Notes under the pieces: model-generated
The model's input: only the letters and a program-made list of their open reading frames with translations
The model's database searches: none
Told to the model about the DNA's origin: nothing
Shown: piece after piece, positions 2,327 to 33,566 of the stretch
Numbering within the stretch: position 1 is the first letter of the stretch
How the letters are laid out: the number at the start of each line of letters is the position of its first letter
NCBI GenBank assembly: GCA_964516725.1
Contig: CAZEZV010000001.1
Span: 1-41,085 of the forward strand
Direction of reading: 5' to 3'
DNA: 41,085 nucleotides
From: an uncultured Phycisphaeraceae bacterium
GTDB taxonomy: Bacteria; Planctomycetota; Phycisphaerae; Phycisphaerales; UBA1924
Translations under genes and position numbers: made by a program

Positions 2327-2354
2327 GCACCGACTGCTGAAAGCAGCAGTCGGT
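2327..2354. terminator. 12-bp perfect stem-loop between the convergent ggt and flgM-like genes (possible bidirectional terminator)
   Basis: caccgactgctg-aaag-cagcagtcggtg. It lies 28 nt past the minus-strand gene end at 2382 and about 130 nt past the ggt stop. There is no clear U-tract on either side. Confidence 0.45.
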
Positions 2355-2381
2355 GGCACGACATTCTTGTGAACAATCGAA

Positions 2382-9493: not shown

Positions 9494-9564
9494 GGTAGCA
9501 CGGGCGTCCTGCCCGTGTCAGACCTCAAGCGACGTTCGTCACAGGCGAGGACGCCTGTGCTACC
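9494..9564. repeat. Family B REP-like palindromic pair, copy 1
   Basis: ggtagcacgggcgtcctgcccgtg (9494-9517) and cacaggcgaggacgcctgtgctacc (9540-9564). Each unit is itself a hairpin, and the two units are in inverted orientation. The pair lies between the ybeY stop and the corC start. Confidence 0.75.
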
Positions 9565-10466: not shown

Positions 10467-10675
10467 GACGGCGTAGCCGTCGAGGTCAATAGCCATGGAT
10501 AGCCACGAAGTGGCATCCACGGGAAGGGCGAACAAGAACGACAGCACCACAAAGTGGTGCAGGAAGGATGGCGGAACACCTTCGCCACTACGTGGCAATT
10601 CATTGAGAATGCGATTGGATTCCGTGGATGCCGCTTCGCGGCGATCCAGGGCTATTCACCAAATCCGCTACGCGG
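10467..10675. repeat. Family C 209-bp mosaic palindromic element, copy 1
   Basis: 35-bp arms at 10488-10522 and 10622-10656 are complementary at 31 of 35 positions. Small outer hairpins gacggcgtagccgtc and ccgctacgcgg, plus a central hairpin gcaccac-aaag-gtggtgc. Homologous to 32274-32482. Confidence 0.85.
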
Positions 10676-10720
10676 CTGAACGTGCCAGTCCCGTCCTACA
10701 CAATCGCGTAGCCACAACCG

Positions 10721-11473: not shown

Positions 11474-11495
11474 GTGTCCCTCCATGGACCAGTGG

Positions 11496-11567
11496 GCCCG
11501 GCGTCTCGCCGGGCACTTTTCGTGAGTGGCGACAATCACATGCGACCTGCCTGGCGGGGACGCCGGG
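11496..11567. repeat. degenerate Family B-like hairpin pair
   Basis: gcccggcg-tct-cgccgggc (11496-11514) and cctggcg-ggga-cgccggg (11550-11567). They share the GGCGTC(C)TCGCC / GGCG(A)GGACGCC cores and the two-unit inverted layout of Family B. Confidence 0.35.
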
Positions 11568-11609
11568 CCTACTGGGGGCAGTTCTTGCGCTTGCGACAAT
11601 ATTAGTCGG

Positions 11610-12770: not shown

Positions 12771-14303
12771 GTGTGGCTGAATGTGGCGGTTGTGGTTGGC
12801 GTGTTTCTGGTTGTGGCTGGGTCGTTCATTGTGGCCCGGGTGATTCCCAATCGAGCTGTGTTTGATCAGCGTCACTACCACCAGCCAACCATCGAAGGGT
12901 TTGCGAAAGAGTGGCCCGCGATTGATGTATGGGATTACCTCTCGGCGACGACGCCTGGGTATCACTGGGTGTTGGCTGGTGTGCTGAAGGTGTTCGGGGC
13001 GGGTGTCGCGGGGTTGCAGGTTGTGTCGATGGTTTTCAGCGCGGGGTTGTTTGGGTTGGTGGCGTGGATGGTGGGGAGAGGGATGAGGGATCGAAGTGGT
13101 GCCGCGCCTGGGTTTGGCGCGGCGTTCCTGTGCATGCCGATTGTGTGCTGTACCTACTTCATTGTGGGCGGGATTGCGCTGCTGCCTGACAACGCGGGGT
13201 GGCTTGGGGTGTGCGCGGTGCTCGCGCTGGCCCTGCATGCGAAGTCGATGCGGGCCTTGTGTGGTGTGGGTTGCGTGGTGCTGCTCGCGCTGGTGCTGAC
13301 GCGGCAGGTGCATCTGTGGACGTGCGGATTGTTGGTGCTGGCGTCGTGGTTGGGGTGTGCGGTGCCAAATGTCACGCAAGATGTCAAGCCTGATTTTTCG
13401 ACAAGGCGATTTTCGCGAGCAGCAATCGCGGCGATTGCTTGCGTGCCGGCGCTGATTGCGGTTGCGCTCTTCGTGCGGTATTGGGGCGGGCTTGTGCCGC
13501 CCCGGTTTCAGTTGCAGTATCCGCCCAAGCCGGTATCGCAATTCTTCGCGTCGCCCGCGCCGGCCTTTGTGCTGAGTGTTTGCGCGATCTTTGGGGCGTT
13601 TTTGATCGGGTTTTGGTGGCAGGGGTTTCGTGCGTTGTGGACGCGGATGCGATGGGTGTTGTTGGTCGTGGTTGTCGTTGGGATGGCTCTGGCGGTTGCG
13701 CCCGCGACAAACTTTGACTATCTCGCGGGTCGGCGAACGGGGTTGTGGAACCTGACGCGGCACGCGCCAGTGCTGTTTGAACGCACGAGTGTGTTGATCG
13801 CGGTGCTTGCGCCGATCGGAGGCGTTGTGCTGGCATCGTTCTTTGTGTCGCTGCGCGAGCGTGGGTTGGTTCGTGATGCCGCAATCCTGCTTGCGACACT
13901 GGCAGGCTACGCAATCGTGCTCACGGCGAGCAACGAGGTGTGGCAGCGGTATGTGGAGCCGTTGGTGTTGGTGGTGATGGTGTTGATGTGTGCAAGGGTT
14001 GGGTTTGAAACTGACGCAGCACTGACGTCGCGGAGCATGGTTGGTGCTGACTCTGAAAAAGGCGCCCCTTCAGTGACGCAAGGCACCGACCGGCTGTCGC
14101 CAATCGGTGGCACGGCGATCAGGTGCGTCGGCGTCGTGAGTCTGTCGATCGCTTTGATTGCGATCACGTTGAAGACTATGAGTGTTGGGTTAGAGAAACT
14201 GAGCGATCCGCCGCCGCCGGCGATTACGGCGGATCACATTGGCCCTACGCCGCCGGTGTTGCTGCCAAGGCCAGAGAAGCCTGCGGGCAAAAAGTTCTGG
14301 TAG
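12771..14303 (+). CDS. GT-C-fold (ArnT/PMT-like) integral membrane glycosyltransferase, putative
   Basis: This is the 3' 510 codons of the 925-aa track ORF, with at least 10 predicted TM helices. The proposed GTG start at 12771 gives (M)WLNVAVVVGVFLVVAG. The upstream part of the ORF is antisense to the UbiA gene and is rejected. The function call rests on topology and context only. Confidence 0.7.
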   Translation: MWLNVAVVVGVFLVVAGSFIVARVIPNRAVFDQRHYHQPTIEGFAKEWPAIDVWDYLSATTPGYHWVLAGVLKVFGAGVAGLQVVSMVFSAGLFGLVAWMVGRGMRDRSGAAPGFGAAFLCMPIVCCTYFIVGGIALLPDNAGWLGVCAVLALALHAKSMRALCGVGCVVLLALVLTRQVHLWTCGLLVLASWLGCAVPNVTQDVKPDFSTRRFSRAAIAAIACVPALIAVALFVRYWGGLVPPRFQLQYPPKPVSQFFASPAPAFVLSVCAIFGAFLIGFWWQGFRALWTRMRWVLLVVVVVGMALAVAPATNFDYLAGRRTGLWNLTRHAPVLFERTSVLIAVLAPIGGVVLASFFVSLRERGLVRDAAILLATLAGYAIVLTASNEVWQRYVEPLVLVVMVLMCARVGFETDAALTSRSMVGADSEKGAPSVTQGTDRLSPIGGTAIRCVGVVSLSIALIAITLKTMSVGLEKLSDPPPPAITADHIGPTPPVLLPRPEKPAGKKFW

Positions 14304-14454
14304 TGGGCGAGTCCGAGGCACTTCTGTTGTTGCTGACAAGCCGCGCGGATTGCGGGTACCGTTCGGTGTGGACGCCTGGGAGTACAAGCCGGCCAAGGAC
14401 GCGAACCTGGCTCCGTTGGAGCGACTCCGCAGCGAGGTGCGCGAGCCGGGGTTG

Positions 14455-15072
14455 ATGTCGCATGTGATCAGCGCGGTGTCGTGGACGGTGTTGCGCGGCT
14501 ACTTCCAGCTGTACAACCGCTTGGAAGTCATCGGAGCAGAACATATTCCTGCGCAGCCGCCCTTTGTTCTCGTCGCCAATCATGCCAGCCATCTTGACGC
14601 GCTCGTGCTGGGTGCGTGTGTGCCGCGCGCGCTGCGGAACGCCGTCTATCCGATCGCGGCGGGCGACGTGTTCTTTGAGTCGTCGGCCCGCATGGTTGTC
14701 GCGGCGACGACGATCAATGCGCTCCCGATTTGGCGCAAGCGCGTGGGCGGGCATGCGCTCGATGATCTCAAGAATCGCTTGCACAGCGGTGAGTGCGCAT
14801 TCATTCTGTTCCCCGAGGGCGCCCGCACGCGGGACGGCAATGCGCTGCGCTGGAAGCCCGGCATCGGCATGATGGTCGCGGGGACAAAGATACCGATTGT
14901 GCCGTGCCGCATCGACGGATGCTTCGAGGTGCTGCGTCCAGGAACGAAGGTTCCAAAGCCGCGCAAGATCCGTGTCACGATGACGCCTGCGATGACGTTC
15001 GAGAACGAGCCTGATGAGCGCAGCGGCTGGGAGAACATTGCCGCGGCGTTGAAGCAGCGGGTTGTGGGCTGA
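14455..15072 (+). CDS. plsC: lysophospholipid / 1-acyl-sn-glycerol-3-phosphate acyltransferase family
   Basis: HX4D motif VANHASHLD and FPEGARTRDG are present. ATG 14455 was chosen; an upstream in-frame GTG at 14368 is also possible. Confidence 0.85.
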   Translation: MSHVISAVSWTVLRGYFQLYNRLEVIGAEHIPAQPPFVLVANHASHLDALVLGACVPRALRNAVYPIAAGDVFFESSARMVVAATTINALPIWRKRVGGHALDDLKNRLHSGECAFILFPEGARTRDGNALRWKPGIGMMVAGTKIPIVPCRIDGCFEVLRPGTKVPKPRKIRVTMTPAMTFENEPDERSGWENIAAALKQRVVG

Positions 15073-15286
15073 ACGTGTCACAGCCAATAACCACGTCAAT
15101 CTAGAGAGGCGATTCCTTGCGCGCTGTCACAGTCGTTGCAGTGCTCGCTCCATCGAACATCCGCTCGCTTGTTTGGTTGCGTACGCCGTGAATTGATGTA
15201 CTTTGTTTTCACGAACCGCTCGAACGCACGCCTTGGCGTGTGCAGCGCGGCTCCAGTTGGACAAGCAAAGACACGGAGCAAGACAC

Positions 15287-15988
15287 ATGAAGACCCGCAT
15301 GATCGCAGCGGCGATTGTTATCGCCGCAATGAGTGGCAGTGCGCTCGCACAGGCCACCATCACCATGAGCACGAATCAACTTCCCAGCGAGCAGGGCTGG
15401 ACGTATCAGACGACCGGTCTGCACGCGGGCACGCCCGAAGTCGTGGCGTTCACGCCCGGCTCAAGCGCTCTTGGCCTCAACACGATGGGCGCTGGGCTCA
15501 ACCTGACCAGTTCGTACCTCGGTGCTCGTAACTTCATGAACGAGTCGCTCTTCACGCCTTCGAGCGTCGTCACCATCGACCTCCGCGCACGCGTCCTCTC
15601 CAGCGAAGTTTCGCTCTACCACTACGGCTTTGGCGTCAGTGTGCAGGGCGGTGGGCGGTGGATGGGCTTTGGGCTTTCAACCACCACGCTCACGTACACC
15701 GACCTGCTCAACCAACCCGCAACCTTCGATCCGACACAGTGGCACGACTACCGCATGGTCGGCAACTGGTCCACCGGCACCTTCCAGATGTTCGTCGACA
15801 ACAACCTCGTCCGCACGGCGAATATGGACTGGCAACACATGGCCGCGAACGCATTCATCGGCGACTCGACCGGCACGGCGAACGCCAACGTCCAGTTGGA
15901 GCGCCTCAACGTGACAATCCCAAGCCCGGCGGGCGCGAGCGTGCTTGCGGGCGGCGGGCTGCTTGCGATGCGTCGGCGACGGAAGTAA
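15287..15988 (+). CDS. secreted protein with PEP-CTERM-type C-terminal sorting signal
   Basis: ATG 15287 has GGAG 8 nt upstream. Signal peptide MKTRMIAAAIVIAAMSGSALA. The C-terminus IPSPAGASVLAGGGLLAMRRRRK shows a P-x-P motif, a TM helix and an Arg cluster. Confidence 0.85.
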   Translation: MKTRMIAAAIVIAAMSGSALAQATITMSTNQLPSEQGWTYQTTGLHAGTPEVVAFTPGSSALGLNTMGAGLNLTSSYLGARNFMNESLFTPSSVVTIDLRARVLSSEVSLYHYGFGVSVQGGGRWMGFGLSTTTLTYTDLLNQPATFDPTQWHDYRMVGNWSTGTFQMFVDNNLVRTANMDWQHMAANAFIGDSTGTANANVQLERLNVTIPSPAGASVLAGGGLLAMRRRRK

Positions 15989-16040
15989 GAACGTCGTTAC
16001 ACCGAAAAGACAATGCGCAGTGGTTCACATCCGCGGGTTT

Positions 16041-17249
16041 TCAGGGCGCTTCAGGCTTGTCGCCCTGCAAGGCCCGCAGCTGCGCGCGCAGGTTCTGGAG
16101 CTGCACGCGGTTGTTGCGGTTGCCGCTTTCGAGGCGGGCACGCTGCTCGTCGGGCAGCTCGACGCTCTTGAGGCGCAGGCTGTTTTCGCGGATCTGCAGT
16201 TCGAGCTGTCGCATTTGACGCTTGATGTCGAGCGTCAGGTCCATACCGCCCAGCCCGTCCTTGGTCTTGACTGGGATGCGCTTACTGGGCTCGGGCTCGA
16301 ACGACGTTGCTGCGTCGTCGGTCAATGCGCGGTGCAGCCCGGCGCGGACGACGTTGAGCGCGCGGAACGGAGCGGTGTCGGGCAGCACGCCGGCCTGCGC
16401 GTCGTTGCGTGCTTGTATTTCGTCGGCTCGCTTGCGACGGCGTTCTTCGCCCACGACCCGGCGATACTGCTCGGGATCAAACGGCGCGACAACGGGCTTG
16501 GGCGCGGGGCCTGCGCCCTCTCGCACGAGGCGGTATTGCCATGCGCGGCGTTTGTCTGCGCTCGTAAGACCGCCCGCGGAACGCTGCTGCAGGTCTTTGA
16601 AGCTGCCTAGGCGTAGGCGAAGCGACTTGGTCTCGCCGGCTCGCTCGACGACAACAGTCACTTCATCGCCTGGCTCGAAGCTGATGATGATGGGGCGCGC
16701 CTCCAACTGGCTGAGGATGGGCAGACCTTCGATTGACTTGAGCACGTCGCCCGCCATCAGCACACGCGCGGAATCAAAGCCTTCGGTTGGATGCTCGATG
16801 GTGACGCCGCTGCCTGGGAGGAAGGATGAGCGAGAAAACTGCACGCCCATCGCGGCTCTCTCTTGGCGCTCGAAGCGGACGTACCCGATGCGTTCGAGGC
16901 GGGTGCGCTGCTCTGGCGAGAGGTCATTCTTCGACAGTTCCTTCGCGATCTGCTTGACGCTGACAAGCGAGGTTGCCAACTGTGCTTCGGCCTCTTCTCG
17001 GGCTTCGAAGTCGTCGGAGTCAAGCTGCTTCACGAGCGAACTGATGTCGAAGTCGCTTAAACCGGCGGACGCGACGTGGGGAGTGCTGTCTGCGAGCGCG
17101 ATGGTGCAAGGGCCGGTGATTACAACGAGCATCGCGCCGATCGCGACACAGCGCGACAGGACCGAGCGAGCTGGCTTTGGTTCGATGCAGCAACCCGCGC
17201 GACGGAAGTCGGCTCGCTGATTCATCATACTGATCCGTTTCTGGCTCAT
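16041..17249 (-). CDS. membrane-anchored PDZ-domain protein with C-terminal coiled coil
   Basis: Start re-set to ATG 17249 (MSQKRISMMNQ) to avoid overlapping the upstream gene. PDZ-like segment GVTIEHPTEGFDSARVLMAGDVLKSIEG...GDEVTVVVERAG. The C-terminal part is charged and helical. Confidence 0.8.
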   Translation of the reverse strand: MSQKRISMMNQRADFRRAGCCIEPKPARSVLSRCVAIGAMLVVITGPCTIALADSTPHVASAGLSDFDISSLVKQLDSDDFEAREEAEAQLATSLVSVKQIAKELSKNDLSPEQRTRLERIGYVRFERQERAAMGVQFSRSSFLPGSGVTIEHPTEGFDSARVLMAGDVLKSIEGLPILSQLEARPIIISFEPGDEVTVVVERAGETKSLRLRLGSFKDLQQRSAGGLTSADKRRAWQYRLVREGAGPAPKPVVAPFDPEQYRRVVGEERRRKRADEIQARNDAQAGVLPDTAPFRALNVVRAGLHRALTDDAATSFEPEPSKRIPVKTKDGLGGMDLTLDIKRQMRQLELQIRENSLRLKSVELPDEQRARLESGNRNNRVQLQNLRAQLRALQGDKPEAP

Positions 17250-17325
17250 GCAACCACCCCCCGAACTTGCAAACTCCGCAGCAGTCAAGAGTAGCGTGGG
17301 AGACAGGCGGGTGAAGCGGGTGGAT

Positions 17326-18336
17326 TCACGCCGTGGCCAGCGCCTGCTTGTACCACGCCACCGTCTCCGCAAGCCCGGTTTCCAGCGATGCGAAGGGTTC
17401 GTACCCGATCAGTTGCCTTGCAAGCCCGATATCCGCGAGGGAGTGCTTGACGTCGCCGTCGCGCTCGGGTGCAAAGGTCGGGTGGATATGAGGCACACCG
17501 CAGGCGATGGCCATTTGTGTTGCGAGGTCGATCACGCTCACGCGCCGGCCCGTGCCGATGTTCATCACTTCGCCCATGAGTTTCTGTGGGGCCGATCCGG
17601 CAAGCAGCGTCGCGAGGACGGCGTTGCTCACGTATGTGAAGTCGCGGGTCTGTGCGCCGTCGCCGTAGATCTTTGGCGGCTCGCCTTTCAGCAACGCCTT
17701 TGCGAACGCCGCCATCACAGCCGCGTATGCGGAGTCGGCGGATTGACGCGGGCCGAAGATGTTGAAGAATCGCACCGACGCGGTGGACAAGCCGTACGAC
17801 CTTGACCAGGTCGCCAGCAAGTGCTCGCCCGCAAGCTTGGTCGCGGCGTAGGGCGACATCGGCTTTGGCATGTGCGTCTCTACTTTGGGCAACTCAAGCA
17901 AGTCGCCGTACGCGGAGCTTGATGCGGCGAACACGACACGCTCTGCTTTTGCACGACGCGCTGCTTCGAGCACGCACACTGTGCCGGTTGCATTCACGCT
18001 CCAGTAGCGCTGGGGTTCAGCAACCGAGCGAGGAACCGAACCCAACGCCGCGAGATGGAAGATTGTCTGAGCGCCCTCAAAGGCCTTGTCTAACGACTCC
18101 TCATCCAGAATCGATCCCTGGATAAACGACACACGATCTGGCTCGAGCTCGATGTGTCCGGACAGGTGATCGAGCGTGCTATTGGACAGATCGTCAATCA
18201 CCGAGACGATCGCGCCGACCCCCAGGAGGGTGTCGATCAGATGCCCGCCGATAAACCCGGCTCCGCCAGTGACGCACACCTTTCGGCGTTCGTAGAACGT
18301 GCGCAGTTTGGCGACTTTGTCCGCAGGGAGTTTCAT
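17326..18336 (-). CDS. NAD-dependent nucleotide-sugar epimerase/dehydratase (extended SDR, WbpP/TviC-like)
   Basis: VTGGAGFIGGHLIDTLL Rossmann motif, SPYAATKLAGE catalytic YxxxK, and FFNIFGPRQS. Confidence 0.95.
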   Translation of the reverse strand: MKLPADKVAKLRTFYERRKVCVTGGAGFIGGHLIDTLLGVGAIVSVIDDLSNSTLDHLSGHIELEPDRVSFIQGSILDEESLDKAFEGAQTIFHLAALGSVPRSVAEPQRYWSVNATGTVCVLEAARRAKAERVVFAASSSAYGDLLELPKVETHMPKPMSPYAATKLAGEHLLATWSRSYGLSTASVRFFNIFGPRQSADSAYAAVMAAFAKALLKGEPPKIYGDGAQTRDFTYVSNAVLATLLAGSAPQKLMGEVMNIGTGRRVSVIDLATQMAIACGVPHIHPTFAPERDGDVKHSLADIGLARQLIGYEPFASLETGLAETVAWYKQALATA

Positions 18337-18481
18337 GCAAAGAGGATAGGGACGGTGTGCCCCCGAAGCCCCCGAAGTACCCTACAACGTACTTGCGATG
18401 CCTCTCCAGAGTTCGGATGTTTACCGGGTTCTGCGGCGATTGCCCCTGAACAGCCAAACACGGTCGGCGTATCTTTAGAGA

Positions 18482-18910
18482 GTGAAGCCTGTCGTTCTGT
18501 CCTTGCTGCTCGTACTGCAACTCTTCGTTGCACCGTGGATTCACGCGCGCGATGCTGAAAACACGACGGAAGCGGCGGCTCTGTCAAGCGAAACCGACTG
18601 CTGCTGTTGCGATTGCGGTTGCTGTACGGGCGAAGCAATGCCCGGCAGGACCGGCACCCCGTCCAGATCCTGCACGCCCGACAACTGTGGGTGTGGAGCG
18701 CGAGTGGCTCAGTCGGCACTGATCGAACGCCAAGCGGTTCGCAAGGCTGGCGTGGCTCGGAAGGCGAACACACTCACGGGCGCTGCGCGAGATCGCCTTG
18801 CGGGTTCGATGCGGCTGGTTTGCTTCGAGAGCCGCAACACGGTGCGCAGTCGTGCTGATGTGCTGACAACGCGAGCTCGGCTTTCCTTGTTTTGTTGCTG
18901 GACGACCTAG
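18482..18910 (+). CDS. secreted poly-cysteine protein, no recognised family
   Basis: GTG start. Signal peptide (M)KPVVLSLLLVLQLFVAPWIHA, then ETDCCCCDCGCCTGE and SCTPDNCGCG, an Arg/Ala-rich segment, and a C-terminal FCCWTT. No convincing RBS. First gene of a same-strand cluster. Confidence 0.55.
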   Translation: MKPVVLSLLLVLQLFVAPWIHARDAENTTEAAALSSETDCCCCDCGCCTGEAMPGRTGTPSRSCTPDNCGCGARVAQSALIERQAVRKAGVARKANTLTGAARDRLAGSMRLVCFESRNTVRSRADVLTTRARLSLFCCWTT

Positions 18911-19046
18911 CTCGGAGATTCCGCGCACGCATCACAAGCTTCGCTCTTGCGTTTTGCAGAGAGCAATCGTCGCGTTCGGGCTATGCCCGGACTGATTCTT
19001 CCCGCAATCAAACTCTCAACTGCACAAAGGTGCAAGGACTCTTTTC

Positions 19047-19436
19047 ATGTTGACCAATCGCTCATTCGTCGCGGCGTTGTCCGCGTCTGTTCTTGTTGCG
19101 TTCTTTGTTTCCGGCTGCGCGAGCACGCCCGCAATGGAAGAAAACGCCGTCGTCCATCACGTGTCCGATGCTGATACGCAAGCCGCGCACAGCAAGGACA
19201 AACTCCGGGGCACGACCGCCGTGCTCTGGGTCAATGGTCTTGGCTGTCCGCAGTGCGCGACCAACGCCGACCTGCAACTCAAGCGAATTTCTGGTGTCGG
19301 AAACATCTACACCGACCTCAGCACGGGCAAGATCAGCCTTTCGCTGCCTGGCGGCGAGAAGAACCCAACGGCCAAGCGCCTTTCCGATTCGGTCGCGGAC
19401 GCTGGCTTCACACTCGTGAAAATCGAGTCCAACTGA
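19047..19436 (+). CDS. heavy-metal-associated (HMA) domain lipoprotein
   Basis: Lipobox FFVSGC. HMA fold with the metal-binding loop VNGLGCPQCATNADLQLKRISGV and the C-terminal beta strand GFTLVKI. Confidence 0.85.
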   Translation: MLTNRSFVAALSASVLVAFFVSGCASTPAMEENAVVHHVSDADTQAAHSKDKLRGTTAVLWVNGLGCPQCATNADLQLKRISGVGNIYTDLSTGKISLSLPGGEKNPTAKRLSDSVADAGFTLVKIESN

Positions 19437-19469
19437 TCACCCAAGACACTTCAACACAAGGAACAACTC

Positions 19470-20321
19470 ATGAAAACAAGTCTGCTCGCAGGCCTCGTGC
19501 TTGCCTGTCTTTCATCTCCGGTCCTCGCCCAGGAAGCCATGGAAACCGCCGCAGCGACCATGCCAAGCCCGGGCATTCTCACGTTTCGTCCGCAGTTCCA
19601 TGTCTCCAGTTACGGCCAAAGGCCCGACGTCGCCTCGGGTTCGGGCATACTGAGCGACCGCACGCTCAGCGCGACAGCAGACATGGGCATTCAGTACGGC
19701 CTTGCCCGTGACTGGTCGCTGTCTTTCGATGTGCCGCTGACGCTAGAGCGTGAAGAAGACCTCTCCGGCGACACCGACAGCGCCGTCGGCGTTGAAGACG
19801 TTGACGCGTACCTCAAGTGGCGCTTCTACCGAAAGGATCACGGCGGCATCAACACCACGCGAGCCGCGCTCTTGTTTGGTGCGGAGTTCGCCAGCGGCGA
19901 CAGCGAGAAATTCTCAAGTCAATCCGTCAATCCTCACGTCGGTGCCGTCATCACCATCGTTCATGGGCGTTTGGGCTTCAACCAAGACTTTCACTACACA
20001 TGGAACACCGGCGGCTCCCGCGAACGCAACCTGGGCGGCGATGGGCCCGACGACCACATCAGTGCGGGCACGGCGTTTGTCTATCGCGTCTGGCCCGACG
20101 CTTTTACTTCCCAATCCGTCGGTGCGTGGTACGTGACCGCAGAGGGCATCCAGCACTACGAAACCAATGGCGATTACGAGCTGCGATTCCTGCCGGGTGT
20201 GATGTATGAAGGCAGGACGTGGGCGTTTGAGGCGATGCTCGTACTGCCGGTGATTGAGGAACTGGACGAGCGGCCCGAACTAGAGTGGGGAGCGGGGTTT
20301 GGGTTTCGATTCACGTTCTAG
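19470..20321 (+). CDS. outer-membrane beta-barrel protein (MetA-pathway/transporter-like barrel, putative)
   Basis: Signal peptide MKTSLLAGLVLACLSSPVLA, alternating amphipathic strands, and the C-terminal GAGFGFRFTF with terminal Phe that is typical of OMPs. Confidence 0.8.
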   Translation: MKTSLLAGLVLACLSSPVLAQEAMETAAATMPSPGILTFRPQFHVSSYGQRPDVASGSGILSDRTLSATADMGIQYGLARDWSLSFDVPLTLEREEDLSGDTDSAVGVEDVDAYLKWRFYRKDHGGINTTRAALLFGAEFASGDSEKFSSQSVNPHVGAVITIVHGRLGFNQDFHYTWNTGGSRERNLGGDGPDDHISAGTAFVYRVWPDAFTSQSVGAWYVTAEGIQHYETNGDYELRFLPGVMYEGRTWAFEAMLVLPVIEELDERPELEWGAGFGFRFTF

Positions 20322-20491
20322 TCAGTTGGTCGGGCCAGAGACGGGCCCCAACACCAACAAAACCCGCATCGCTTGCGGCGTTTCGTCCGATACAACTCCG
20401 AGTCGTTCCTTGCCGCGTGCCGAACAATGCACGCGGCTTTTCGTATGTGCGCGAGGCACGCAAGAGATGGCGAACGTGGTTGAAAACGTCA

Positions 20492-22132
20492 ATGGCGGAC
20501 GCAGAATCTTCATCCCGGCCTGACGCCCCATTCGAAGCACCCCCCGATGCGTCCCTCATCGCGCCCGCAGACGAGCCGAACACGCCACCCGAGATCAGCG
20601 TGGGCAAGCGCGTTGGCTTTGGGCTTGCATGGACGCTGGTTGCGAACGTGATCGGCAAGGGTGCAGGCATCGCGCTCACGATCGTGCTCGGGTATCTGCT
20701 TTCGCAAGAGGAGATGGGTGTCTGGTCTGCGACGCTGGGCGTGTACTCGATCATGGTCGCGCTCCGCGATGGCGGGCTTGGAACTTTGCTCGTTCAGAGA
20801 GGCGAGCGCGAGTACGAGAACCTGATTGGCCCGGTCTTCTGGCTGTCCGCCGGGCTTCACATGTTTGGCGCGCTGGCGCTTGCGGCGATTGCTCCGATCT
20901 ATGCGGCGCAGCAGCCGGACAAGGTGGGTTTGCAGGGCACGATGCTGCTGTGCGCGCTTGCGCTGCTTCTGCTGTCGCCCTCGGCGGCGGCGTTTGCGAG
21001 GCTTCGCATGCAACTGCGCTTCGCCCGCGTCGCTGCGATCATGCTCGCGGCGTCGCTCGCGAGGGTGGCGGTCGTGCTCGGGTGCGCATACGCGGGGCTG
21101 GGGCCCATGAGCTTTGGCTGGGGGCTTGTGGCCGTCGCGATCATCGAATCGGGCGCGATGGTGTACAGCACGCGGGAGGCGCTCTGGGCGCACGCTCCGC
21201 AGGTGCGTCGCTGGCCCAACTTGATCTACCTCACGCGCTGGAACATCGCGCTTGCCGTCGCGAGCGCGCTGGCCGCTGCGGGCGATTCGCTAGCGCTTGC
21301 GCCGCTGGTTGATGCAAAGATTCTGGGCATCTATTACTTCGCCGTGTCGCTTGTGATGCAGGTTGAGCAGGCGATTTCGGGCTCCGCGTCGCAGGTGCTG
21401 TTCCCGGCGTTCGCGCAGTTCAAGGACGACGAGAAGCGACTGGGCGATGCGATGCTGCGGGCGTGCCAGGCGCTTGTGCTCATCGGCGCGCCGATGACGC
21501 TGGGGCTGGGCGCACTCGCGGATCCCTTGATCAAGTTTGTCTGGTCCAACAACCGGTGGGACGAATCGATCCTGTGTCTGATGGCGCTGAGCGTGTTCTT
21601 TGTGTTCCGCATCGTGTTTGTCTCGCCTGCGGCGGTGCTGCTCGCGCAGGGGCGGTTCAAACGCGTGTTCGCGTCAGTGTTTGGCGCGGGCCTGTCGCTA
21701 CCAATCGCGGCCGCCTTCGGAGCAATCGTCTGGGGCTCACCGCTTGCGATTGCGATCTGCGCCGGCGCCGCATTTGGGCCAACGTGCCTGCTCATGTCGC
21801 TGTGGATCGGCAAGCACATCGGCGTTTCGCGCCGGCGCATGCTGAAGGCGCTGCTGCCGGCGTGGTTCGCTGCGCTTGCATGCGGAGCTGCTGTTTGGAG
21901 CCTCGACAGACTTGTGTTGCAAGGAGTGTGCGGCATCGGTGTTGGCGACAGTGCTGGTCGTGTGCATCAGTTGATTCGCCTTGTCACGGGCGGCGCATGC
22001 TTCTGGCTGCTCTACATCGTGCTCATCCGCTTCGCGCTGACACACGCGCTCATTGACGGACTTTCCATCACGCCTCAGCGCATTCGCGGCCCAATTCAGA
22101 AAGTTCTGCGATTAAATTCTGAAAGCGCCTAG
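20492..22132 (+). CDS. MOP-superfamily flippase (Wzx-like polysaccharide/oligosaccharide exporter)
   Basis: Start re-set to ATG 20492 (MADAESSS). About 12-14 TM helices. The N-terminal pattern GFGLAWTLVANVIGKGAGIALTIVLGYLLSQEEMG is typical of Wzx/PST-family proteins. Confidence 0.8.
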   Translation: MADAESSSRPDAPFEAPPDASLIAPADEPNTPPEISVGKRVGFGLAWTLVANVIGKGAGIALTIVLGYLLSQEEMGVWSATLGVYSIMVALRDGGLGTLLVQRGEREYENLIGPVFWLSAGLHMFGALALAAIAPIYAAQQPDKVGLQGTMLLCALALLLLSPSAAAFARLRMQLRFARVAAIMLAASLARVAVVLGCAYAGLGPMSFGWGLVAVAIIESGAMVYSTREALWAHAPQVRRWPNLIYLTRWNIALAVASALAAAGDSLALAPLVDAKILGIYYFAVSLVMQVEQAISGSASQVLFPAFAQFKDDEKRLGDAMLRACQALVLIGAPMTLGLGALADPLIKFVWSNNRWDESILCLMALSVFFVFRIVFVSPAAVLLAQGRFKRVFASVFGAGLSLPIAAAFGAIVWGSPLAIAICAGAAFGPTCLLMSLWIGKHIGVSRRRMLKALLPAWFAALACGAAVWSLDRLVLQGVCGIGVGDSAGRVHQLIRLVTGGACFWLLYIVLIRFALTHALIDGLSITPQRIRGPIQKVLRLNSESA

Positions 22133-22179
22133 CCCCCCACCGTTTCCGCCCACCCCCACCCCCCGCCCCCCGAGTCACC

Positions 22180-23409
22180 ATGACACGACCATGGACCAAA
22201 ACGATCACGCGGCTGCTCGTGCTTGTGCTTCAGTGCGCGTGCTGGGTTGTCGTTGGCGCGTGGCTGGTTGGGCGGATCGCGAGCGACCGCTTCTTATGGA
22301 GTCAGTTTCTGTCATGGATTCCCACGATTGTGCCGTTGGCGGCGGCGATCGTGGTCTGGATGCTTGCGATACTCGCTCCCAGGGATCACAAGCCCGGAGC
22401 GCTTCTGACGAATGTCGGCGCGGCGCCCGCCCGGCGGCGCGGCGCTGGTGCGATGTCGTTTTTCTCTCTGCCCGCGATCGCAGCCATATCGGTCGTTGCT
22501 TGGCTCGCTGTGATTGACATCCGTGTACACGCGATCTTCACGGGCTTCGGTTCCAGTAAGTCGCCGGTCGCCCTGCGCCTCCTGTGTTGGAATGCGACGA
22601 CGGCGAGCGTGCCGCAGATGGCCTCGCTCGTCAAGGAGCACAGGCCCGACATCGCAATTTTGTCGAACACGCCGTTTAGCGCGTCGCTCGTTCCTGTGCG
22701 CGACGCAATGAGCGCAGCGGCGAAGGAAGGAAACAAGGAGCCGGCGACCTACGTCGCCAGTTCCATACGCCTCAACGTCATCTCACGCTTTCCGGTTCTT
22801 CACCACGCCGTGATGCCTTTAAGGATTTCCGGCGCGAAGGAGCGCACCTTCACGTGGGTCGGCGGCGGCATGAAGCACATCGATACGGGGCAGTTGATGT
22901 GCGTCGCACTTGACACGACAAAGGGCTTGGGCCGACCAACTGTCCTTTGGGTCGTCGACCTTCCCAGCGATCCGGACATCCCGCGTGCCCGCATGATGCG
23001 TGAGTTTGAGTCTGCTGTTGCGAGCTTCGGCACAACAATCATGCGCCGCGCCGAAGACGGTCTTGATCGCGTCGTGCCGCCAGGCGATCGGGCGAGGGTT
23101 CTTGCGAGCCTCAAACATCCGGACATCATCGCGGGCGACTTCAACACGACTCGCGACAGCGCGAGCCTCGCCCGGTTTCTGGACTCGCTGGGCTCGTTCG
23201 AGCATGCAAAGGCGCAGAGCACGGGCGCGGGCGGCGTAGGCTGGGACTTTACTTACCCACGAACCTTCCCGGTACTGCACATCGACCACGTGTTTGTCAG
23301 CACAACGCAGAACACGAACAACGGCACGCATTCGCTGCGGGCAAAGAACTACAACGTCCTTGATCCGGATGTTGGGCGACACTGTGTCCAGGTCGTGGAT
23401 ATGGAGTAG
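22180..23409 (+). CDS. membrane-anchored endonuclease/exonuclease/phosphatase (EEP) family protein
   Basis: Three N-terminal TM helices. EEP motifs LLCWNA, PDIAILSN, IIAGDFNTTRDS and HIDHVFVS. Confidence 0.85.
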   Translation: MTRPWTKTITRLLVLVLQCACWVVVGAWLVGRIASDRFLWSQFLSWIPTIVPLAAAIVVWMLAILAPRDHKPGALLTNVGAAPARRRGAGAMSFFSLPAIAAISVVAWLAVIDIRVHAIFTGFGSSKSPVALRLLCWNATTASVPQMASLVKEHRPDIAILSNTPFSASLVPVRDAMSAAAKEGNKEPATYVASSIRLNVISRFPVLHHAVMPLRISGAKERTFTWVGGGMKHIDTGQLMCVALDTTKGLGRPTVLWVVDLPSDPDIPRARMMREFESAVASFGTTIMRRAEDGLDRVVPPGDRARVLASLKHPDIIAGDFNTTRDSASLARFLDSLGSFEHAKAQSTGAGGVGWDFTYPRTFPVLHIDHVFVSTTQNTNNGTHSLRAKNYNVLDPDVGRHCVQVVDME

Positions 23410-25167: not shown

Positions 25168-25242
25168 GGGTGGCACAGGCGTCCTCGCCTGTGCCCAGGC
25201 GCCAGTGACATTCAAGCACAGGCGAGGACGCCTGTGCCACCC
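25168..25242. repeat. Family B REP-like palindromic pair, copy 2
   Basis: gggtggcacaggcgtcctcgcctgtgc (25168-25194) is the exact reverse complement of 25216-25242, with a 21-nt spacer. Each unit is itself a hairpin (cacaggcg-tcct-cgcctgtg). Confidence 0.85.
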
Positions 25243-31301: not shown

Positions 31302-32258
31302 ATGCCCACCCCTGTCGCCAGCCTCCTCATCAACACGCTCAACCGCAAGGACGACTTGCGCATCGCGCTCAATTCTGTCTTTGAGCAGACAGTGCCGCTC
31401 GAGGTGATTGTCGTGGATGATGGCTCGACAGACGGTACCAGCGATATGGTGCGGGCCGAGTTTCCGCAGGTGAAGATGCTCCGGAACGAGCAGCCGCTGG
31501 GAATCATCGCGGCGAGAAATCGTGCGGCGCATGAAGCGACGCACAACATCATGTTCACGATGGATGATGACGCGACGTTTTCGTCAAAGACGACTGCGGA
31601 GCGAGTGCTGAAGCGATTTGATCATCCGCGAGTGGGCGCTGTGACTCTGCCGCTGATTGATCACATTGAAGGGGTGGCGCAGAAGCCGTCTCTGCCGATC
31701 AGCGAGGAGACGCCTGCGGACTTTCCCGTGACGTTTGCGTATACGGGTGGCGGCAACGCGAAACGGCGGGACTTGTTCCTGGCGCTGGGCGGGTATGGCG
31801 GCGTCGGGAGGCAAGGGGAAGAGTCGAATTACTGCATCAAGATGCTCAGCGCGGGATACATCGTGCGGATCGCGTGCGCGGGGTGGCTCAATCACTATCC
31901 GATCGTCAAGAAGCGCGACGAGAACAAGATCGCGTATTCGGGGGCGATGAACCGCGTGATTTACACGATGCAGCACGTGCCGTTTCCGGAGGTTGTGAAG
32001 CACATGGCTGGGGTGCTGGTGAATCAGGTTCGCGTTGGGATTCGTGACGGGCGGCTGAAGCACTGCTTGAAGGGTGTGTGGGATGGGTGGTGTTGGTATC
32101 GCGCGAATCGACAGGTTCGCAAGCCGATCACGTCGCAGGTGTATCAGTTGAGCCGGGTGCTTGTGACGAAGGAGGCGCTGCCATTTTCGGAGGTTGAGGG
32201 GATGCTGCCGCCCATGAAGACGGTGGAAGAGATTCGGGAGATGAGTGGTGCAGGGTGA
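31302..32258 (+). CDS. family 2 glycosyltransferase
   Basis: ATG 31302 gives MPTPVASLLINTLNR. GT2 motifs LEVIVVDDGSTDGT and FTMDDDATF. Confidence 0.9.
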   Translation: MPTPVASLLINTLNRKDDLRIALNSVFEQTVPLEVIVVDDGSTDGTSDMVRAEFPQVKMLRNEQPLGIIAARNRAAHEATHNIMFTMDDDATFSSKTTAERVLKRFDHPRVGAVTLPLIDHIEGVAQKPSLPISEETPADFPVTFAYTGGGNAKRRDLFLALGGYGGVGRQGEESNYCIKMLSAGYIVRIACAGWLNHYPIVKKRDENKIAYSGAMNRVIYTMQHVPFPEVVKHMAGVLVNQVRVGIRDGRLKHCLKGVWDGWCWYRANRQVRKPITSQVYQLSRVLVTKEALPFSEVEGMLPPMKTVEEIREMSGAG

Positions 32259-32273
32259 TCAAGCACGAGTATT

Positions 32274-32482
32274 CTGCCGCAACGCGGCAGAGGTGAATAG
32301 CCGTGGATAGCCGCGAAGCGGCATCCACGGCGCTGTGTTGGCACAAAGCAGCACCACGACGTGGTGCAGGAAAGTGTGTTGCCGCACCATCATCGCTTCG
32401 CGATGACACATCCAAGAACGCGCGTTCCGTGGATGCCGCTTCGCGGCTATCCACGGCTATTGACCGAGACGGCTACGCCGTC
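32274..32482. repeat. Family C 209-bp mosaic palindromic element, copy 2
   Basis: The arms aatagccgtggatagccgcgaagcggcatccacgg (32296-32330) and 32427-32461 are perfect reverse complements (35 of 35). Each arm is also its own hairpin (ccgtggat-a-gccgc-gaa-gcggc-atccacgg). Outer hairpins ctgccgc-aac-gcggcag and gacggc-tac-gccgtc, and a central hairpin gcaccac-gacg-gtggtgc. Confidence 0.9.
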
Positions 32483-32573
32483 CAAGCAAGGGCGGTTTGG
32501 GGACCTTTGCGGCGCGACGATCTTGTTGACGCGCGTGATCTGACATTTCGAGAGTTGCGGAGTACCGTTGCAC

Positions 32574-33566
32574 ATGTCAACAACAGCGCAGCAGATTCCG
32601 GCCGGTTCTCGAGTCATTGTGACCGGCGGGGCGGGGTTTTTAGGCAAGTTTGTGATCGAGAAGCTGCTCGCGCGAGGAGTGACGCGCGACAACATCTTCA
32701 TTCCGCGCCGCAAGGACTTTGACTTGACGCAGCAGGCCGACGTCGCTCGCATGTATCGCACGGCGTTCAAGCACTTCCCGCCTGATCTTGTGATTCACCT
32801 CGCTGCGGAGGTTGGCGGGATCGGCGCGAACCAGAAGAATCCGGGTCGGTACTTCTACGCGAACATGGCAATGGCGCTGCACTTGATTGAGCAGTTCCGC
32901 GAGGAGGGACTGGTTTCGCGCGGAGCGAAGTTTGTGCAGGTTGGGACCATCTGCGCGTATCCAAAGTTCACGCCGGTGCCGTTCAAGGAAGAGGACTTGT
33001 GGAACGGGTATCCGGAAGAGACCAACGCGCCGTATGGCGTTGCCAAGAAAGCCGCGTGGCAGATGCTGGACGCGTACAAACTGCAGTACGGCATGAAGAG
33101 CGCATATGTGCTGCCGGTGAACTTGTATGGGCCGGGCGACAACTTTGACTTGTTCAGCAGCCATGTGATCCCCGCGCTGATTCGCAAGGCGGTTGTGGCT
33201 CAAGAGCGCGGAGACAAAGAGATCGTGTGCTGGGGCACAGGCAGCGCGTCGCGCGAGTTCTTGTACGTTGAAGACGCGGCGGAGGGAACGCTGCGCGCGG
33301 CAGAAGTCATGGACTCCCCCACGCCTCTCAACCTTGGCGCCGGCTTCGAAATCAAGATCAAGGACCTTGTCGAGTTGATCGTGAAGCTGGTGGGGTTCAA
33401 GGGGAACATCGTGTGGGACACGAGCAAGCCCGACGGACAGCCGCGGCGGCAATTGAGCGTTGAGTTGGCGGCGAAGCAGCTTGGTTGGCGGGCACAAGTG
33501 CCGTTTGAGGAGGGGCTCAAGCGGACGATTGCATGGTTCAGGGATCACAAGGGCAAGATCAAGTAA
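32574..33566 (+). CDS. fcl: GDP-L-fucose synthase (GDP-4-keto-6-deoxy-D-mannose 3,5-epimerase/4-reductase)
   Basis: The track start is TTG; ATG 32574 is used. [36 protein letters not shown] and NLYGPGDNF fit the Fcl/WcaG pattern. Confidence 0.93.

What the first reader, a model, noticed from the sequence alone, without database searches (positions are those of the whole stretch)
32274..32482. Family C: 209-bp mosaic palindromic element with perfect 35-bp arms, two copies 22 kb apart
Copy 2 (32274-32482) and copy 1 (10467-10675) have the same length and the same architecture: outer mini-hairpin, 35-bp arm, central region with a GCACCAC-N4-GTGGTGC hairpin, the inverse 35-bp arm, outer mini-hairpin. 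The arms are 35/35 complementary in copy 2 and 31/35 in copy 1. Each arm is also self-complementary (CCGTGGAT-A-GCCGC-GAA-GCGGC-ATCCACGG), so the element can fold as a chain of at least five hairpins or as one long stem. The arms are conserved between copies while the centre has diverged. Both copies are strictly intergenic. This could be a MITE-like mobile element, a BIME-like structural repeat or a structured RNA. I recognise no described family.
Basis: seen in the sequence. Interest (0 to 1): 0.62.

Follow-up and report, generated by a model that had tools for sequence, protein, structure and literature searches.

The report
REP-doublet (REPIN-like) mobile palindrome
The two 209-bp palindromes are copies of a REP-doublet repeat, a small gene-less element found in many bacterial phyla whose full-length relatives carry an IS200-like tyrosine (HUH) transposase between the same hairpin ends; the kind is known, but this enzyme subclass had been listed as having no such repeats.

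Summary
Two about 210-bp imperfect palindromes (10467-10678 and 32274-32482) share the layout H1 mini-hairpin, AATAG head, 30-nt bulged hairpin H2, H3, centre, H3', H2', H1'. Both lie between co-directional genes. Both are missing from the orthologous sites of the nearest genome (Phycisphaerales MAG STL-PLA8). Their arms are 14-24x over-represented in three of four metagenomes holding this organism.

A structure-aware scan found the same module, usually as inverted pairs 95-105 nt apart, in Planctomycetota, Verrucomicrobiota, Acidobacteriota, Lentisphaerota, Chlamydiota and Bacteroidota. H1 and H2 vary by compensatory changes, and the loops are mostly GNA triloops.

The same six-hairpin frame brackets a Y1 (HUH) transposase gene in 66 of 74 homologues tested, including Phycisphaerae. 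These units end at H1 and have no target duplication. The enzyme carries the subclass 1.2 signature (Y---Q--HH), which Quentin et al. 2018 listed as REP-less.

Best reading: a REPIN/BIME-like non-autonomous element moved in trans by that Y1 enzyme on single-stranded DNA.

Caveats:
- There is no Y1 gene in the window, and the source genome is unavailable.
- No insertion polymorphism was seen.
- In two other lineages the doublet sits inside a TIR/TSD MITE.

It is a new variant of a known kind.

The parts
32274..32482 (.). Copy 2, the whole REP doublet (209 bp) between the GT2 glycosyltransferase gene (stop at 32258) and the epimerase gene (start about 32568-32574)
   Evidence: (I4). Metagenome contigs break away at 32481/32482 and 32275.
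32274..32290 (+). H1 outer mini-hairpin, CTGCCGC-AAC-GCGGCAG
   Evidence: H1 is conserved as a structure across the family.
32296..32330 (+). Left arm: AATAG head plus H2 (CCGTGGAT-A-GCCGC-GAA-GCGGC-ATCCACGG)
   Evidence: The covariance model scores 58.1 bits over 32271-32331.
32351..32367 (+). H3 central mini-hairpin, GCACCAC-GAC-GTGGTGC
32390..32406 (+). H3' central mini-hairpin, TCATCGC-TTC-GCGATGA
32427..32461 (-). Right arm: H2' plus CTATT, the exact reverse complement of the left arm
   Evidence: The covariance model scores 65.2 bits over 32426-32486.
32468..32482 (-). H1' outer mini-hairpin, GACGGC-TAC-GCCGTC (a GTA loop on the minus strand)
   Evidence: The repeat boundary lies at 32481/32482.
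10467..10678 (.). Copy 1, the whole REP doublet. It is older and more degenerate. It lies between the stop of ORF 10721-11839(-) and the start of ORF 10081-10452(-).
   Evidence: (I3). It is present and identical in runs X1 and X2.
10467..10481 (+). H1, GACGGC-GTA-GCCGTC
10488..10522 (+). Left arm: AATAG plus H2. Its inner stem GCCAC/GTGGC is a compensated variant of GCCGC/GCGGC.
   Evidence: The covariance model scores 55.1 bits.
10544..10560 (+). H3, GCACCAC-AAA-GTGGTGC
   Evidence: Other copies in the metagenomes share this hairpin up to 10565.
10584..10596 (+). H3', GCCAC-TAC-GTGGC
10622..10656 (-). Right arm: H2' plus CTATT (31/35 complementary to the left arm)
   Evidence: The covariance model scores 54.1 bits.
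10665..10678 (-). H1', degenerate (CCGC-TAC-GCGG, then CTG by homology with copy 2's H1)

Best explanation
Each copy is a non-autonomous REP doublet, of the type called REPIN, BIME or 'HH dimer'. It consists of two inverted three-hairpin modules (H1, then an NTAG head plus the bulged hairpin H2, then H3) joined by a short centre.

Full-length relatives hold a 150-aa Y1 (HUH) tyrosine transposase of TnpAY1 subclass 1.2 between the same modules. The doublet is that unit without its gene.

Proposed mechanism, by analogy with TnpA-REP and IS200/IS605 TnpA:
1. On single-stranded DNA, for example the lagging-strand template, the hairpins extrude.
2. The enzyme, supplied in trans, recognises H2 through its 5' (A/G/T)TAG head and stem irregularity.
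3. It cuts near the ends, possibly at a CT within the conserved CTCTT(G) just outside H1.
4. It rejoins the DNA, moving or copying the doublet without making a target duplication.

Shown here: the anatomy; multi-copy status; absence from the orthologous sites of the nearest genome; structure-preserving variation; family-wide bracketing of Y1 genes; and the absence of TSDs in this lineage.

Inferred: binding, the cleavage site, the single-stranded intermediate, and mobilisation in trans in this organism.
For: Anatomy and fold:
- The layout and fold are shown.

Insertion and copy number:
- The orthologous sites in STL-PLA8 are empty. The gaps are 93 bp against 326 bp, and 28 bp against 280 bp.
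- Arm depth is 14-24x that of the flanks, with sharp breakpoints at the H1 ends.

Distribution:
- A genome scan gave more than 109 loci in at least six phyla. Of 119 hits, 96 have an independent perfect H1.
- There are 45 inverted pairs, nearly all with 95-105 nt spacing.

Structure conservation:
- H1 is present in 83% of modules against 7% of shuffles. It sits at a fixed 5-8 nt spacer, has GAA/GGA/GTA loops, and shows 93 distinct stems.
- In the pair counts, 86.9% of cells are paired, against 71% in shuffles and 35-41% when slid. There are 182 double-sided changes against 54.

Link to the Y1 enzyme:
- Y1_Tnp genes lie inside the same frame in L093, L119, L134 and L163.
- L119 has the AATAG-CCGTGGGT arm type.
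- Of 80 homologues, 18 are bracketed under the strict detector, against about 0.004 expected.
- 66 of 74 are bracketed under the generic inverted-repeat test.
- Phycisphaerae cases are L067/L069, L332-L338 and the cultured strain RAS1.
- Y1 units and Phycisphaerales doublets end at H1 without a TSD and share the CTCTT(G) termini.

Enzyme class:
- HUH, WQ and Y---Q--HH occur in 77 of 80 homologues, and none has Y---NP.
- The nearest solved structures are IS200/IS605 TnpA.

Mechanistic precedent comes from PMC3333891.
Against: - There is no Y1 gene in the 41-kb window.
- The source genome could not be retrieved.
- The only Y1 found with the AATAG-CCGTGGGT arm type (L119) is frameshifted. None was found with the window's own GGAT/ATCC stem variant.
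- No empty-site allele was seen in four metagenomes.
- The empty sites are in a genome only about 81% identical, so a loss in that genome cannot be formally excluded.
- In an acidobacterial MAG and in Parachlamydiaceae the doublet lies inside a longer TIR unit with 8-10 bp target duplications. High copy number can therefore arise by another route.
- The enzyme fails the NCBIfam RayT model, scoring 21 bits against a cutoff of 80.
- No subclass 1.2 enzyme has been tested biochemically (PMC6006769).
- The H2 pairing statistics are partly circular, because the detectors required pairing.
Confidence: 0.7

Rival explanations
1. It is a classical MITE: a deletion derivative of a DDE-type insertion sequence, moved by cut-and-paste through its terminal inverted repeats and leaving target-site duplications.
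For: - The element has long terminal inverted repeats.
- In Acidobacteria MAG JACOSC01 the doublet sits in a 330-nt unit with GTAACTGTTCA termini and 8-bp duplications. Several are 8/8 matches.
- In Parachlamydiaceae, L181 has a 10/10 duplication.
Against: - The window copies and four other Phycisphaerales doublets end at H1 and show no duplication.
- Twenty Y1-containing units show none either.
- The outer TIRs of the two TSD-bearing lineages are unrelated to each other, while the inner modules are conserved.
- The intact Y1 unit of the same acidobacterial MAG (L163) is not bounded by the MITE termini.
- No DDE transposase recurs beside the modules.
Confidence: 0.1
2. It is primarily a host-selected structured element: an RNA stem that terminates or stabilises operon transcripts, or a protein-binding DNA structure as proposed for BIMEs. 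Any mobility would be incidental.
For: - Both copies lie between co-directional genes and would be co-transcribed.
- The fold is extremely stable as RNA, with z = -12.8.
- REPs and BIMEs are credited with such roles (PMC3733652).
- Copy 1 is fixed in all strains seen.
Against: - No Rfam family matches.
- There is no T-tract terminator on the coding strand, and nothing is consistent between the two copies.
- The two-fold symmetry and the GNA triloops closed by C-G fit a DNA-level, strand-symmetric element better. That such triloops form stable DNA mini-hairpins is my own background knowledge, not tested here.
- The sites are empty in the nearest relative, so the neighbouring genes work without the element.
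- No RNA data are available to test this.
Confidence: 0.1
3. It is an ordinary IS200/IS605-type derivative (a PATE): the ends of a multi-copy, self-mobile, strand-specific IS with distinct left and right ends.
For: - NCBIfam and PDB place the enzyme with IS200/IS605 TnpA.
- There are no TSDs.
Against: - The ends are symmetric inverted modules, not distinct left and right ends.
- No tnpB partner appears in the loci examined.
- Quentin et al. report low copy number and low within-genome identity for this subclass, and state that it lacks IS properties (PMC6006769).
- The units carry tandem arrays of modules, as REPtrons do.
Confidence: 0.08
4. It is a simple local duplication or a chance palindrome with no family behind it.
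For: Only two copies lie in the window, and the exact arm is absent from both contig collections.
Against: - Zero arm matches are expected by chance.
- Metagenomes hold many other copies with different flanks.
- Homologous modules occur across phyla.
Confidence: 0.01

Closest known systems
REPINs and their RAYTs in Pseudomonas fluorescens (Bertels & Rainey 2011, PMC3116915; listed)
   Same: - Two inverted REPs separated by a spacer fold into one long hairpin.
- The element is gene-less, multi-copy and extragenic.
- The cognate Y1 gene is bracketed by the same REPs.
   Different: - Each half here has three hairpins (H1, H2, H3).
- The spacer is about 100 nt and structured.
- The head is (A/G/T)TAG.
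- The enzyme has Y---Q--HH, not the RAYT motif Y---NP.
- The module core is conserved across phyla rather than within one genus.
E. coli BIMEs and the REPtron with TnpA-REP (Ton-Hoang et al. 2012, PMC3333891)
   Same: - Inverted REP pairs, each with a 5' tetranucleotide head.
- A hairpin with an obligatory stem irregularity.
- The Y1 gene is flanked by REP pairs.
- The enzyme acts on ssDNA, cuts at CT, and makes no target duplication.
   Different: - The enzyme here does not reach the NCBIfam RayT model (21 bits against 80).
- The E. coli TnpA-REP structure is not among the PDB hits at E <= 1.
- The extra H1 and H3 hairpins with GNA triloops are not part of the E. coli elements.
- IHF-type linkers were not examined.
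GTAG-tagged REP families and 'HH dimers' in PVC bacteria such as O. terrae and R. baltica (Di Nocera et al. 2013, PMC3733652)
   Same: - Tagged palindromes arranged as dimers with the heads outside.
- Spacers of 20-100 bp, some carrying stem-loops.
- Presence in Planctomycetes and Verrucomicrobia, with dedicated tyrosine transposases.
   Different: - That paper reports degeneracy of the tag at positions 2 and 3. Here position 1 varies (ATAG in the window).
- Whether any of their 24 families equals this one could not be checked, because the figures are not held.
- Phycisphaerae are not mentioned.
TnpAY1 subclass 1.2 (Quentin et al. 2018, PMC6006769)
   Same: - The motifs DH[IV]H, WQ and Y---Q--HH.
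- A length of about 148 aa with a C-terminal extension.
- Low copy number.
   Different: That paper lists the subclass as 'REP: no' and mostly cyanobacterial or Bacteroidetes. Here 66 of 74 members from Acidobacteriota, Verrucomicrobiota, Planctomycetota and others are bracketed by REP-like modules.
IS200/IS605 insertion sequences such as IS608 and ISDra2
   Same: - They are the closest enzymes by sequence and solved structure.
- They have hairpin ends, an ssDNA mechanism and no target duplication.
   Different: - IS200/IS605 elements have distinct left and right ends on one strand and no terminal inverted repeats.
- They are multi-copy and are often paired with tnpB.

Membership tests
REP / REPIN / BIME | A 20-40 nt imperfect palindrome with a conserved 5' tetranucleotide head (GT[AG]G) | tested here: met
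   The arm is a 30-nt bulged hairpin preceded by ATAG. Across the family the head is (A/G/T)TAG and TAG is invariant in alignment A5. The first base deviates from the canonical G.
REP / REPIN / BIME | Many dispersed extragenic copies in the genome | tested here: inconclusive
   The window holds 4 modules in 2 intergenic doublets. Arm depth is 14-24x that of the flanks, and 17-29 contigs per run were laid in the three richest metagenomes. The genome itself was not available for a census.
REP / REPIN / BIME | Two REPs in inverted orientation that can pair into one long hairpin | tested here: met
   Arm-to-arm stem, -89.5 kcal/mol as DNA, z = -13. The family has 45 inverted pairs with 95-105 nt spacing.
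REP / REPIN / BIME | A cognate Y1 transposase gene flanked by the same REPs (a REPtron) | tested here: inconclusive
   Met in relatives: L119 (same AATAG-CCGTGGGT type, but a frameshifted gene), L067/L069, L332-L338, and 66 of 74 homologues. Not found in the window, and the rest of this genome could not be searched.
REP / REPIN / BIME | No target-site duplication | tested here: met
   None at the window copies, at four other Phycisphaerales doublets or at 20 Y1 units. The exceptions are composite MITEs in two other lineages.
RAYT / TnpA-REP (TnpAY1 class 2) | A Y---NP tyrosine motif and a match to the RayT equivalog model | tested here: not met
   None of 80 homologues has Y---NP, and 77 of 80 have Y---Q--HH. 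NF047646 scores 21 bits against a cutoff of 80, while NF033573 transpos_IS200 is above its cutoff.
TnpAY1 subclass 1.2 | DH[IV]H, WQ, Y---Q--HH, about 148 aa, conserved C-terminal tail, low copy number | tested here: met
   The motifs and lengths match. The authors' own HMM was not available, so membership rests on their published signature.
TIR-type MITE (DDE transposon derivative) | Target-site duplication of fixed length at the ends | tested here: not met
   No duplication at either window copy or in the Phycisphaerales relatives.
TIR-type MITE (DDE transposon derivative) | A full-length partner with the same ends that encodes a DDE transposase | tested here: not met
   The only recurrent gene between such ends is Y1_Tnp.
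IS200/IS605 (and PATE derivatives) | Distinct left and right subterminal hairpins on one strand, and insertion 3' of a fixed tetranucleotide | tested here: not met
   The ends are symmetric inverted modules. The target tetranucleotide could not be tested, because no precise empty site is available.
Known structured RNA (Rfam 15) | A match to a curated covariance model | tested here: not met
   No hit at gathering score in the window or in 18 related loci, and only noise at E <= 10.

The most novel reading that the evidence does not exclude
TnpAY1 subclass 1.2 was described in 2018 as an IS200-like Y1 group with no REPs and no IS properties. On this reading it is the enzyme of a widespread, cross-phylum REPtron system. 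Its ends are tripartite hairpin modules (a GNA-triloop H1, an NTAG-headed bulged H2, and H3). The gene-less doublets, such as the two in this window, are its non-autonomous progeny. In some lineages these doublets have been captured and amplified by unrelated TIR/TSD MITEs.
Probability: 0.6. Interest if true: 0.55.

Novelty: new variant of a known kind. Interest (0 to 1): 0.45.

Why it matters
- It gives a function-level lead for a Y1/HUH subclass that had none. The enzyme has a defined DNA partner and a clear in-vitro test, and a cultured host (Phycisphaerae bacterium RAS1) carries the full unit.
- It extends REP/REPIN biology, studied almost only in Proteobacteria, to Planctomycetota, Verrucomicrobiota, Acidobacteriota and others. 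The module core is conserved across phyla, which bears on whether such systems are ancient and vertically inherited or horizontally spread.
- It has practical value for annotation. These palindromes fragment short-read assemblies: Logan contigs break at the arms. They also generate spurious ORFs such as 10495-10833 and 32303-32722. A covariance model like R1 could flag them in MAG annotation.

Tried and rejected
- **Exact or near-exact arm patterns.** These gave 0 hits in the species-representative genomes and in the JGI metagenome contigs. The window's own genome is not in those collections.
- **Exact-protein look-ups.** Two flanking window proteins were not on record.
- **Second metagenome scan for the GGAT/ATCC subfamily.** All 58 hits were spurious. 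They lack H1, and most are one conserved coding motif.
- **Rfam.** Nothing was found.
- **L103 as a possible 4-kb autonomous element.** Rejected. It holds two separate doublets with ordinary genes between them.
- **ABC-ATPase cluster beside modules.** This is background, because it is the commonest family.
- **RNA evidence.** The only RNA run holds 8-15% of the locus's sampled words, and nothing laid on the element.
- **Insertion polymorphism.** None was seen at either copy in X1-X4.
- **Terminator and promoter scans.** Results were at chance level.
- **The centre flipped relative to the ends.** I considered this because the H1 types are swapped between the copies. I dropped it because H1 stems vary freely between copies, and even between the two ends of one unit.
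- **The centre as a relic of the Y1 start codon.** The AGGAAGG-ATG in copy 1 is not conserved in other doublets, so this is not supported.

Full report

Yes. Copy 2 (32274-32482) and copy 1 (10467-10675, or 10678 by homology) have the anatomy described.
- The 35-nt arms (AATAG plus a 30-nt hairpin) are 35/35 complementary in copy 2 and 31/35 in copy 1.
- The 30-mer arm core occurs four times at up to 3 mismatches, against none in 100 shuffles.
- Each arm folds on itself with a one-base bulge and a 3-nt loop (GAA, or TTC on the opposite arm).
- The inverted symmetry reaches about 60 nt per side, because it includes the outer mini-hairpin (I1-I4).
- Small corrections: the central hairpin is GCACCAC-N3-GTGGTGC, and there is a second central hairpin (H3').
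- Between the copies, the outer modules are 80-90% identical and the centre is 69% identical in the same orientation.
- A single strand of copy 2 folds into one long arm-to-arm stem. H1 and H1' stay as separate outer hairpins, and H3 and H3' form branches. The z-score is -13 as DNA and -12.8 as RNA.

**2. Context**

The window is a roughly 60% GC chromosome segment of a Phycisphaerales bacterium (Planctomycetota). The nearest species-representative genome is MAG STL-PLA8, about 81% identical in DNA.
- Copy 1 lies between the stop of ORF 10721-11839(-) and the start of ORF 10081-10452(-), just upstream of ybeY.
- Copy 2 lies between a GT2 glycosyltransferase gene and an NAD-dependent epimerase gene.
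- In both cases the flanking genes point the same way.
- In STL-PLA8 the two orthologous intergenic gaps are 28 bp and 93 bp. In the window they are 280 bp and 326 bp, so the element is absent from both sites there.
- The divergence is too great to read the junctions base by base.

**3. Copy number**

The exact arm is absent from the genome and metagenome contig collections. Public runs from activated sludge and wastewater do hold this organism.
- Laying their contigs on copy 2 gives a depth over 32425-32482 that is 14-24 times the flanks in three of four runs.
- Many contigs leave the reference exactly at 32481/32482, and one at 32275, into unrelated sequence.
- The same is seen at copy 1, where other copies also share H3 and then diverge.
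- The roughly 56-nt terminal module is therefore a multi-copy repeat with a sharp outer boundary at H1.
- Variant copies carry paired changes, for example GGAT/ATCC to GGGT/ACCC.
- Copy 1 is present in every strain seen, and no contig joins the flanks without it. No insertion polymorphism was found.

**4. The family**

- The phyla include Planctomycetota (Phycisphaerales, Pirellulales, Gemmatales, Thermoguttaceae) and Verrucomicrobiota (Chthoniobacteraceae, Akkermansia).
- They also include Acidobacteriota, Lentisphaeria, Parachlamydiaceae, Bacteroidales and Acidimicrobiia.
- Of the 119 hits, 96 have an independent perfect H1 hairpin, and only about 8 look like chance.
- Forty-five are inverted pairs with heads outward, nearly all with 95-105 nt between the H2 hairpins.
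- The centres again contain two mini-hairpins.
- The conserved unit is therefore H1, a 5-8 nt spacer, NTAG, H2, 15-20 nt, H3, about 25-30 nt, H3', H2', CTAN and H1'.

**5. Structure conservation**

- H1 is a perfect hairpin of at least 5 bp in 216 of 260 distinct modules, against 7% of shuffles. These modules were selected on H2 only.
- H1 sits 5-8 nt from the head, with loops GAA (71), GGA (46) and GTA (32), and 93 different stem sequences.
- On an alignment of 82 diverse modules, 86.9% of cells pair, against 71.1% in shuffles and 35-41% when the partners are slid. There are 182 double-sided changes against 54.
- Caveat: the detectors required H2 pairing, and this subset also required H1. The unbiased figure is the one.
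- GNA triloops closed by C-G are, to my knowledge, the classic very stable DNA mini-hairpin. This was not tested here, but it points to action on single-stranded DNA.
- Rfam has no matching family.

**6. The partner gene**

Clustering all ORFs of the motif loci gave one meaningful recurrent family, Y1_Tnp (PF01797), in L093, L119, L134 and L163.
- In each locus the gene sits inside the same six-hairpin frame, where the doublets have their centre.
- L119 (Planctomycetota) has the AATAG-CCGTGGGT arm type, but its gene is frameshifted.

The test from the protein side used 80 homologues.
- Eighteen are bracketed on both sides by NTAGCC-headed hairpins at 45-90 nt from the gene ends, and 12 more on one side.
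- My calculation from the background rates gives about 0.004 expected by chance.
- A generic inverted-repeat test raises this to 66 of 74. The cases missed earlier have a shorter H2 within the same layout.

The window's own class also carries these units.
- Phycisphaerales UBA1924 (L067, L069) was fetched through the epimerase gene, not through the motif.
- Also bracketed are two paralogues in MAG JADLGW01, the DATKZB01 group, and the cultured Phycisphaerae bacterium RAS1. Arrays of modules are common.
- Their H2 stem (CCACGGGT/ACCCGTGG) differs from CCGTGGGT/ACCCACGG by two compensated pairs.
- The CTCTT(G) just outside H1 is shared with the window doublets.
- There is no Y1 gene in the window.

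**7. Which enzyme?**

The proteins are about 148-150 aa, with DHVH, WQ and YIxNQxxHH, plus a conserved C-terminal tail.
- Of the 80 homologues, 77 have Y---Q--HH and none has the RAYT motif Y---NP.
- NCBIfam places them in transpos_IS200. The RayT model scores 21 bits against a cutoff of 80.
- The nearest solved structures are IS200/IS605 TnpA, and E. coli TnpA-REP is not among the hits.
- This is the published signature of TnpAY1 subclass 1.2. Quentin et al. describe that subclass as low-copy, lacking IS properties, 'REP: no', and mainly cyanobacterial or Bacteroidetes (PMC6006769).
- No later paper in the library changes that picture.
- IMG's label 'REP element-mobilizing transposase RayT' on many members appears to be a generic orthologous-group name. 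I do not count it as evidence.

**8. Target duplications: a complication**

- In Acidobacteria MAG JACOSC01 (19 aligned copies) the doublet lies inside a 330-nt unit with termini GTAACTGTTCA...TGAACAGTTAC. That unit has clear 8-bp duplications, including AAAATAAT, AAAAGATA, CTATCGTG and GTTTCTTC.
- In Parachlamydiaceae the inverted repeat extends about 60 nt further, and L181 has a 10/10 duplication.
- Y1 enzymes are not known to make duplications (PMC3333891).
- However, the two outer termini are unrelated to each other. The intact Y1 unit of JACOSC01 (L163) is bounded by ordinary H1 modules, not by the MITE termini.
- Twenty Y1 units and all six Phycisphaerales doublets, including both window copies, end at H1 with no duplication.
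- I therefore read the TSD-bearing forms as secondary captures of a doublet by unrelated TIR-type MITEs. This is inference.

**9. Mechanism**

By analogy with TnpA-REP, the Y1 enzyme would act in trans on extruded hairpins.
- TnpA-REP binds single-stranded REP through the 5' GTAG and a stem mismatch. It cuts at C|T at the inverted REP and in linkers, and it acts on both strands of a doublet.
- IS200/IS605 TnpA acts on the lagging-strand template and leaves no duplication.
- Here the enzyme would recognise the NTAG head and bulged H2, cut near the ends, and move or copy the doublet.
- The anatomy, family membership and gene association are shown. Binding, the cut site and trans-mobilisation in this organism are inferred.

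**10. Comparison and novelty**

The kind is known: REP/BIME/REPIN elements with their Y1 enzymes. That includes GTAG-tagged head-outside dimers with structured 20-100 bp spacers, and tyrosine transposases in PVC bacteria (PMC3733652).

The new points are these.
- The tripartite module with GNA triloops.
- A variable first base in the head.
- Conservation of the module core and spacing across phyla.
- The enzyme class, which fails the RAYT (class 2) definition and had been reported as REP-less.

I rate this a new variant of a known kind, of moderate interest.

Noticed in passing
window 303-460: Another palindromic doublet. It has 31-nt purine-rich and pyrimidine-rich arms, 90% complementary, with 96 nt between them, just upstream of the gamma-glutamyltranspeptidase ORF. 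It has no TAG head, so it is a different family with a similar spacing.
   Followed up: no
window 2201-2360: A third palindromic doublet. Its 33-nt arms are 88% complementary with 94 nt between them. Each arm is self-complementary (CACCGACTGCTG-AAAG-CAGCAGTCGGTG). It has no TAG head.
   Followed up: no
window 1810-1890: A 36-nt inverted repeat with a GNA-loop mini-hairpin (GGCCGTCCC-GGA-GGGACGGCC) lies in frame inside the gamma-glutamyltranspeptidase gene (492-2195). It encodes an extra loop of about 14 aa between the conserved TPTIV and GGSGG motifs. It may be an intragenic REP-like insertion.
   Followed up: partly
window 25168-25242 and 9540-9564; L081 4931-5019: A perfect 27-nt palindrome pair (GGGTGGCACAGGCGTCCTCGCCTGTGC...), with a half copy 15.6 kb away. 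It is also present in MAG STL-PLA8, so this is a further repeat family shared between species.
   Followed up: partly
L093-L177 (Acidobacteria MAG JACOSC01): A MITE of about 330 nt with termini GTAACTGTTCA...TGAACAGTTAC and 8-bp target duplications carries a REP doublet inside it. It is present in more than 19 copies. Its transposase is unknown.
   Followed up: partly
L123, L133, L181 (Parachlamydiaceae MAG): Here the doublet has about 60 nt of extra inverted repeat on each side (CAATGTC(A/G)TCAAGTTAAATAATTTTC...). L181 shows a 10-bp direct duplication, GGTTTTAGCC.
   Followed up: partly
window 13119-23294 compared with L081: Synteny with STL-PLA8 breaks here. Window 21140-23294 matches L081 2-2126 in the opposite orientation to the adjoining block, and window 14300-21140 has no counterpart in L081. 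The ybeY block and the epimerase block lie on different contigs in that MAG.
   Followed up: no
L067, L069, L049, L054 (about 0.5-1.3 kb downstream of the epimerase gene): In several other Phycisphaerales genomes, modules lie just downstream of the same epimerase gene whose upstream spacer holds copy 2 in the window. In L067 and L069 it is the whole Y1 unit.
   Followed up: no
L332, L333 (Phycisphaerales MAG JADLGW01): Two diverged Y1 units lie about 5 kb apart, next to CBASS-type genes (SMODS, bacterial HORMA, AAA ATPase) and a Schlafen-like helicase. This may be a defence-island setting.
   Followed up: no
L263 1989-2254; L267 1191-1499; L334 3508-3945: Tandem arrays of 3-4 modules, with periods of about 78, 90 and 120 nt, lie on one side of the Y1 gene. 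They resemble the REP clusters of REPtrons.
   Followed up: no
window 10495-10833(+), 32303-32722(+), 32128-32454(-): Long mechanical ORFs run through the palindromes. They are probably spurious and could be mis-called as genes.
   Followed up: no
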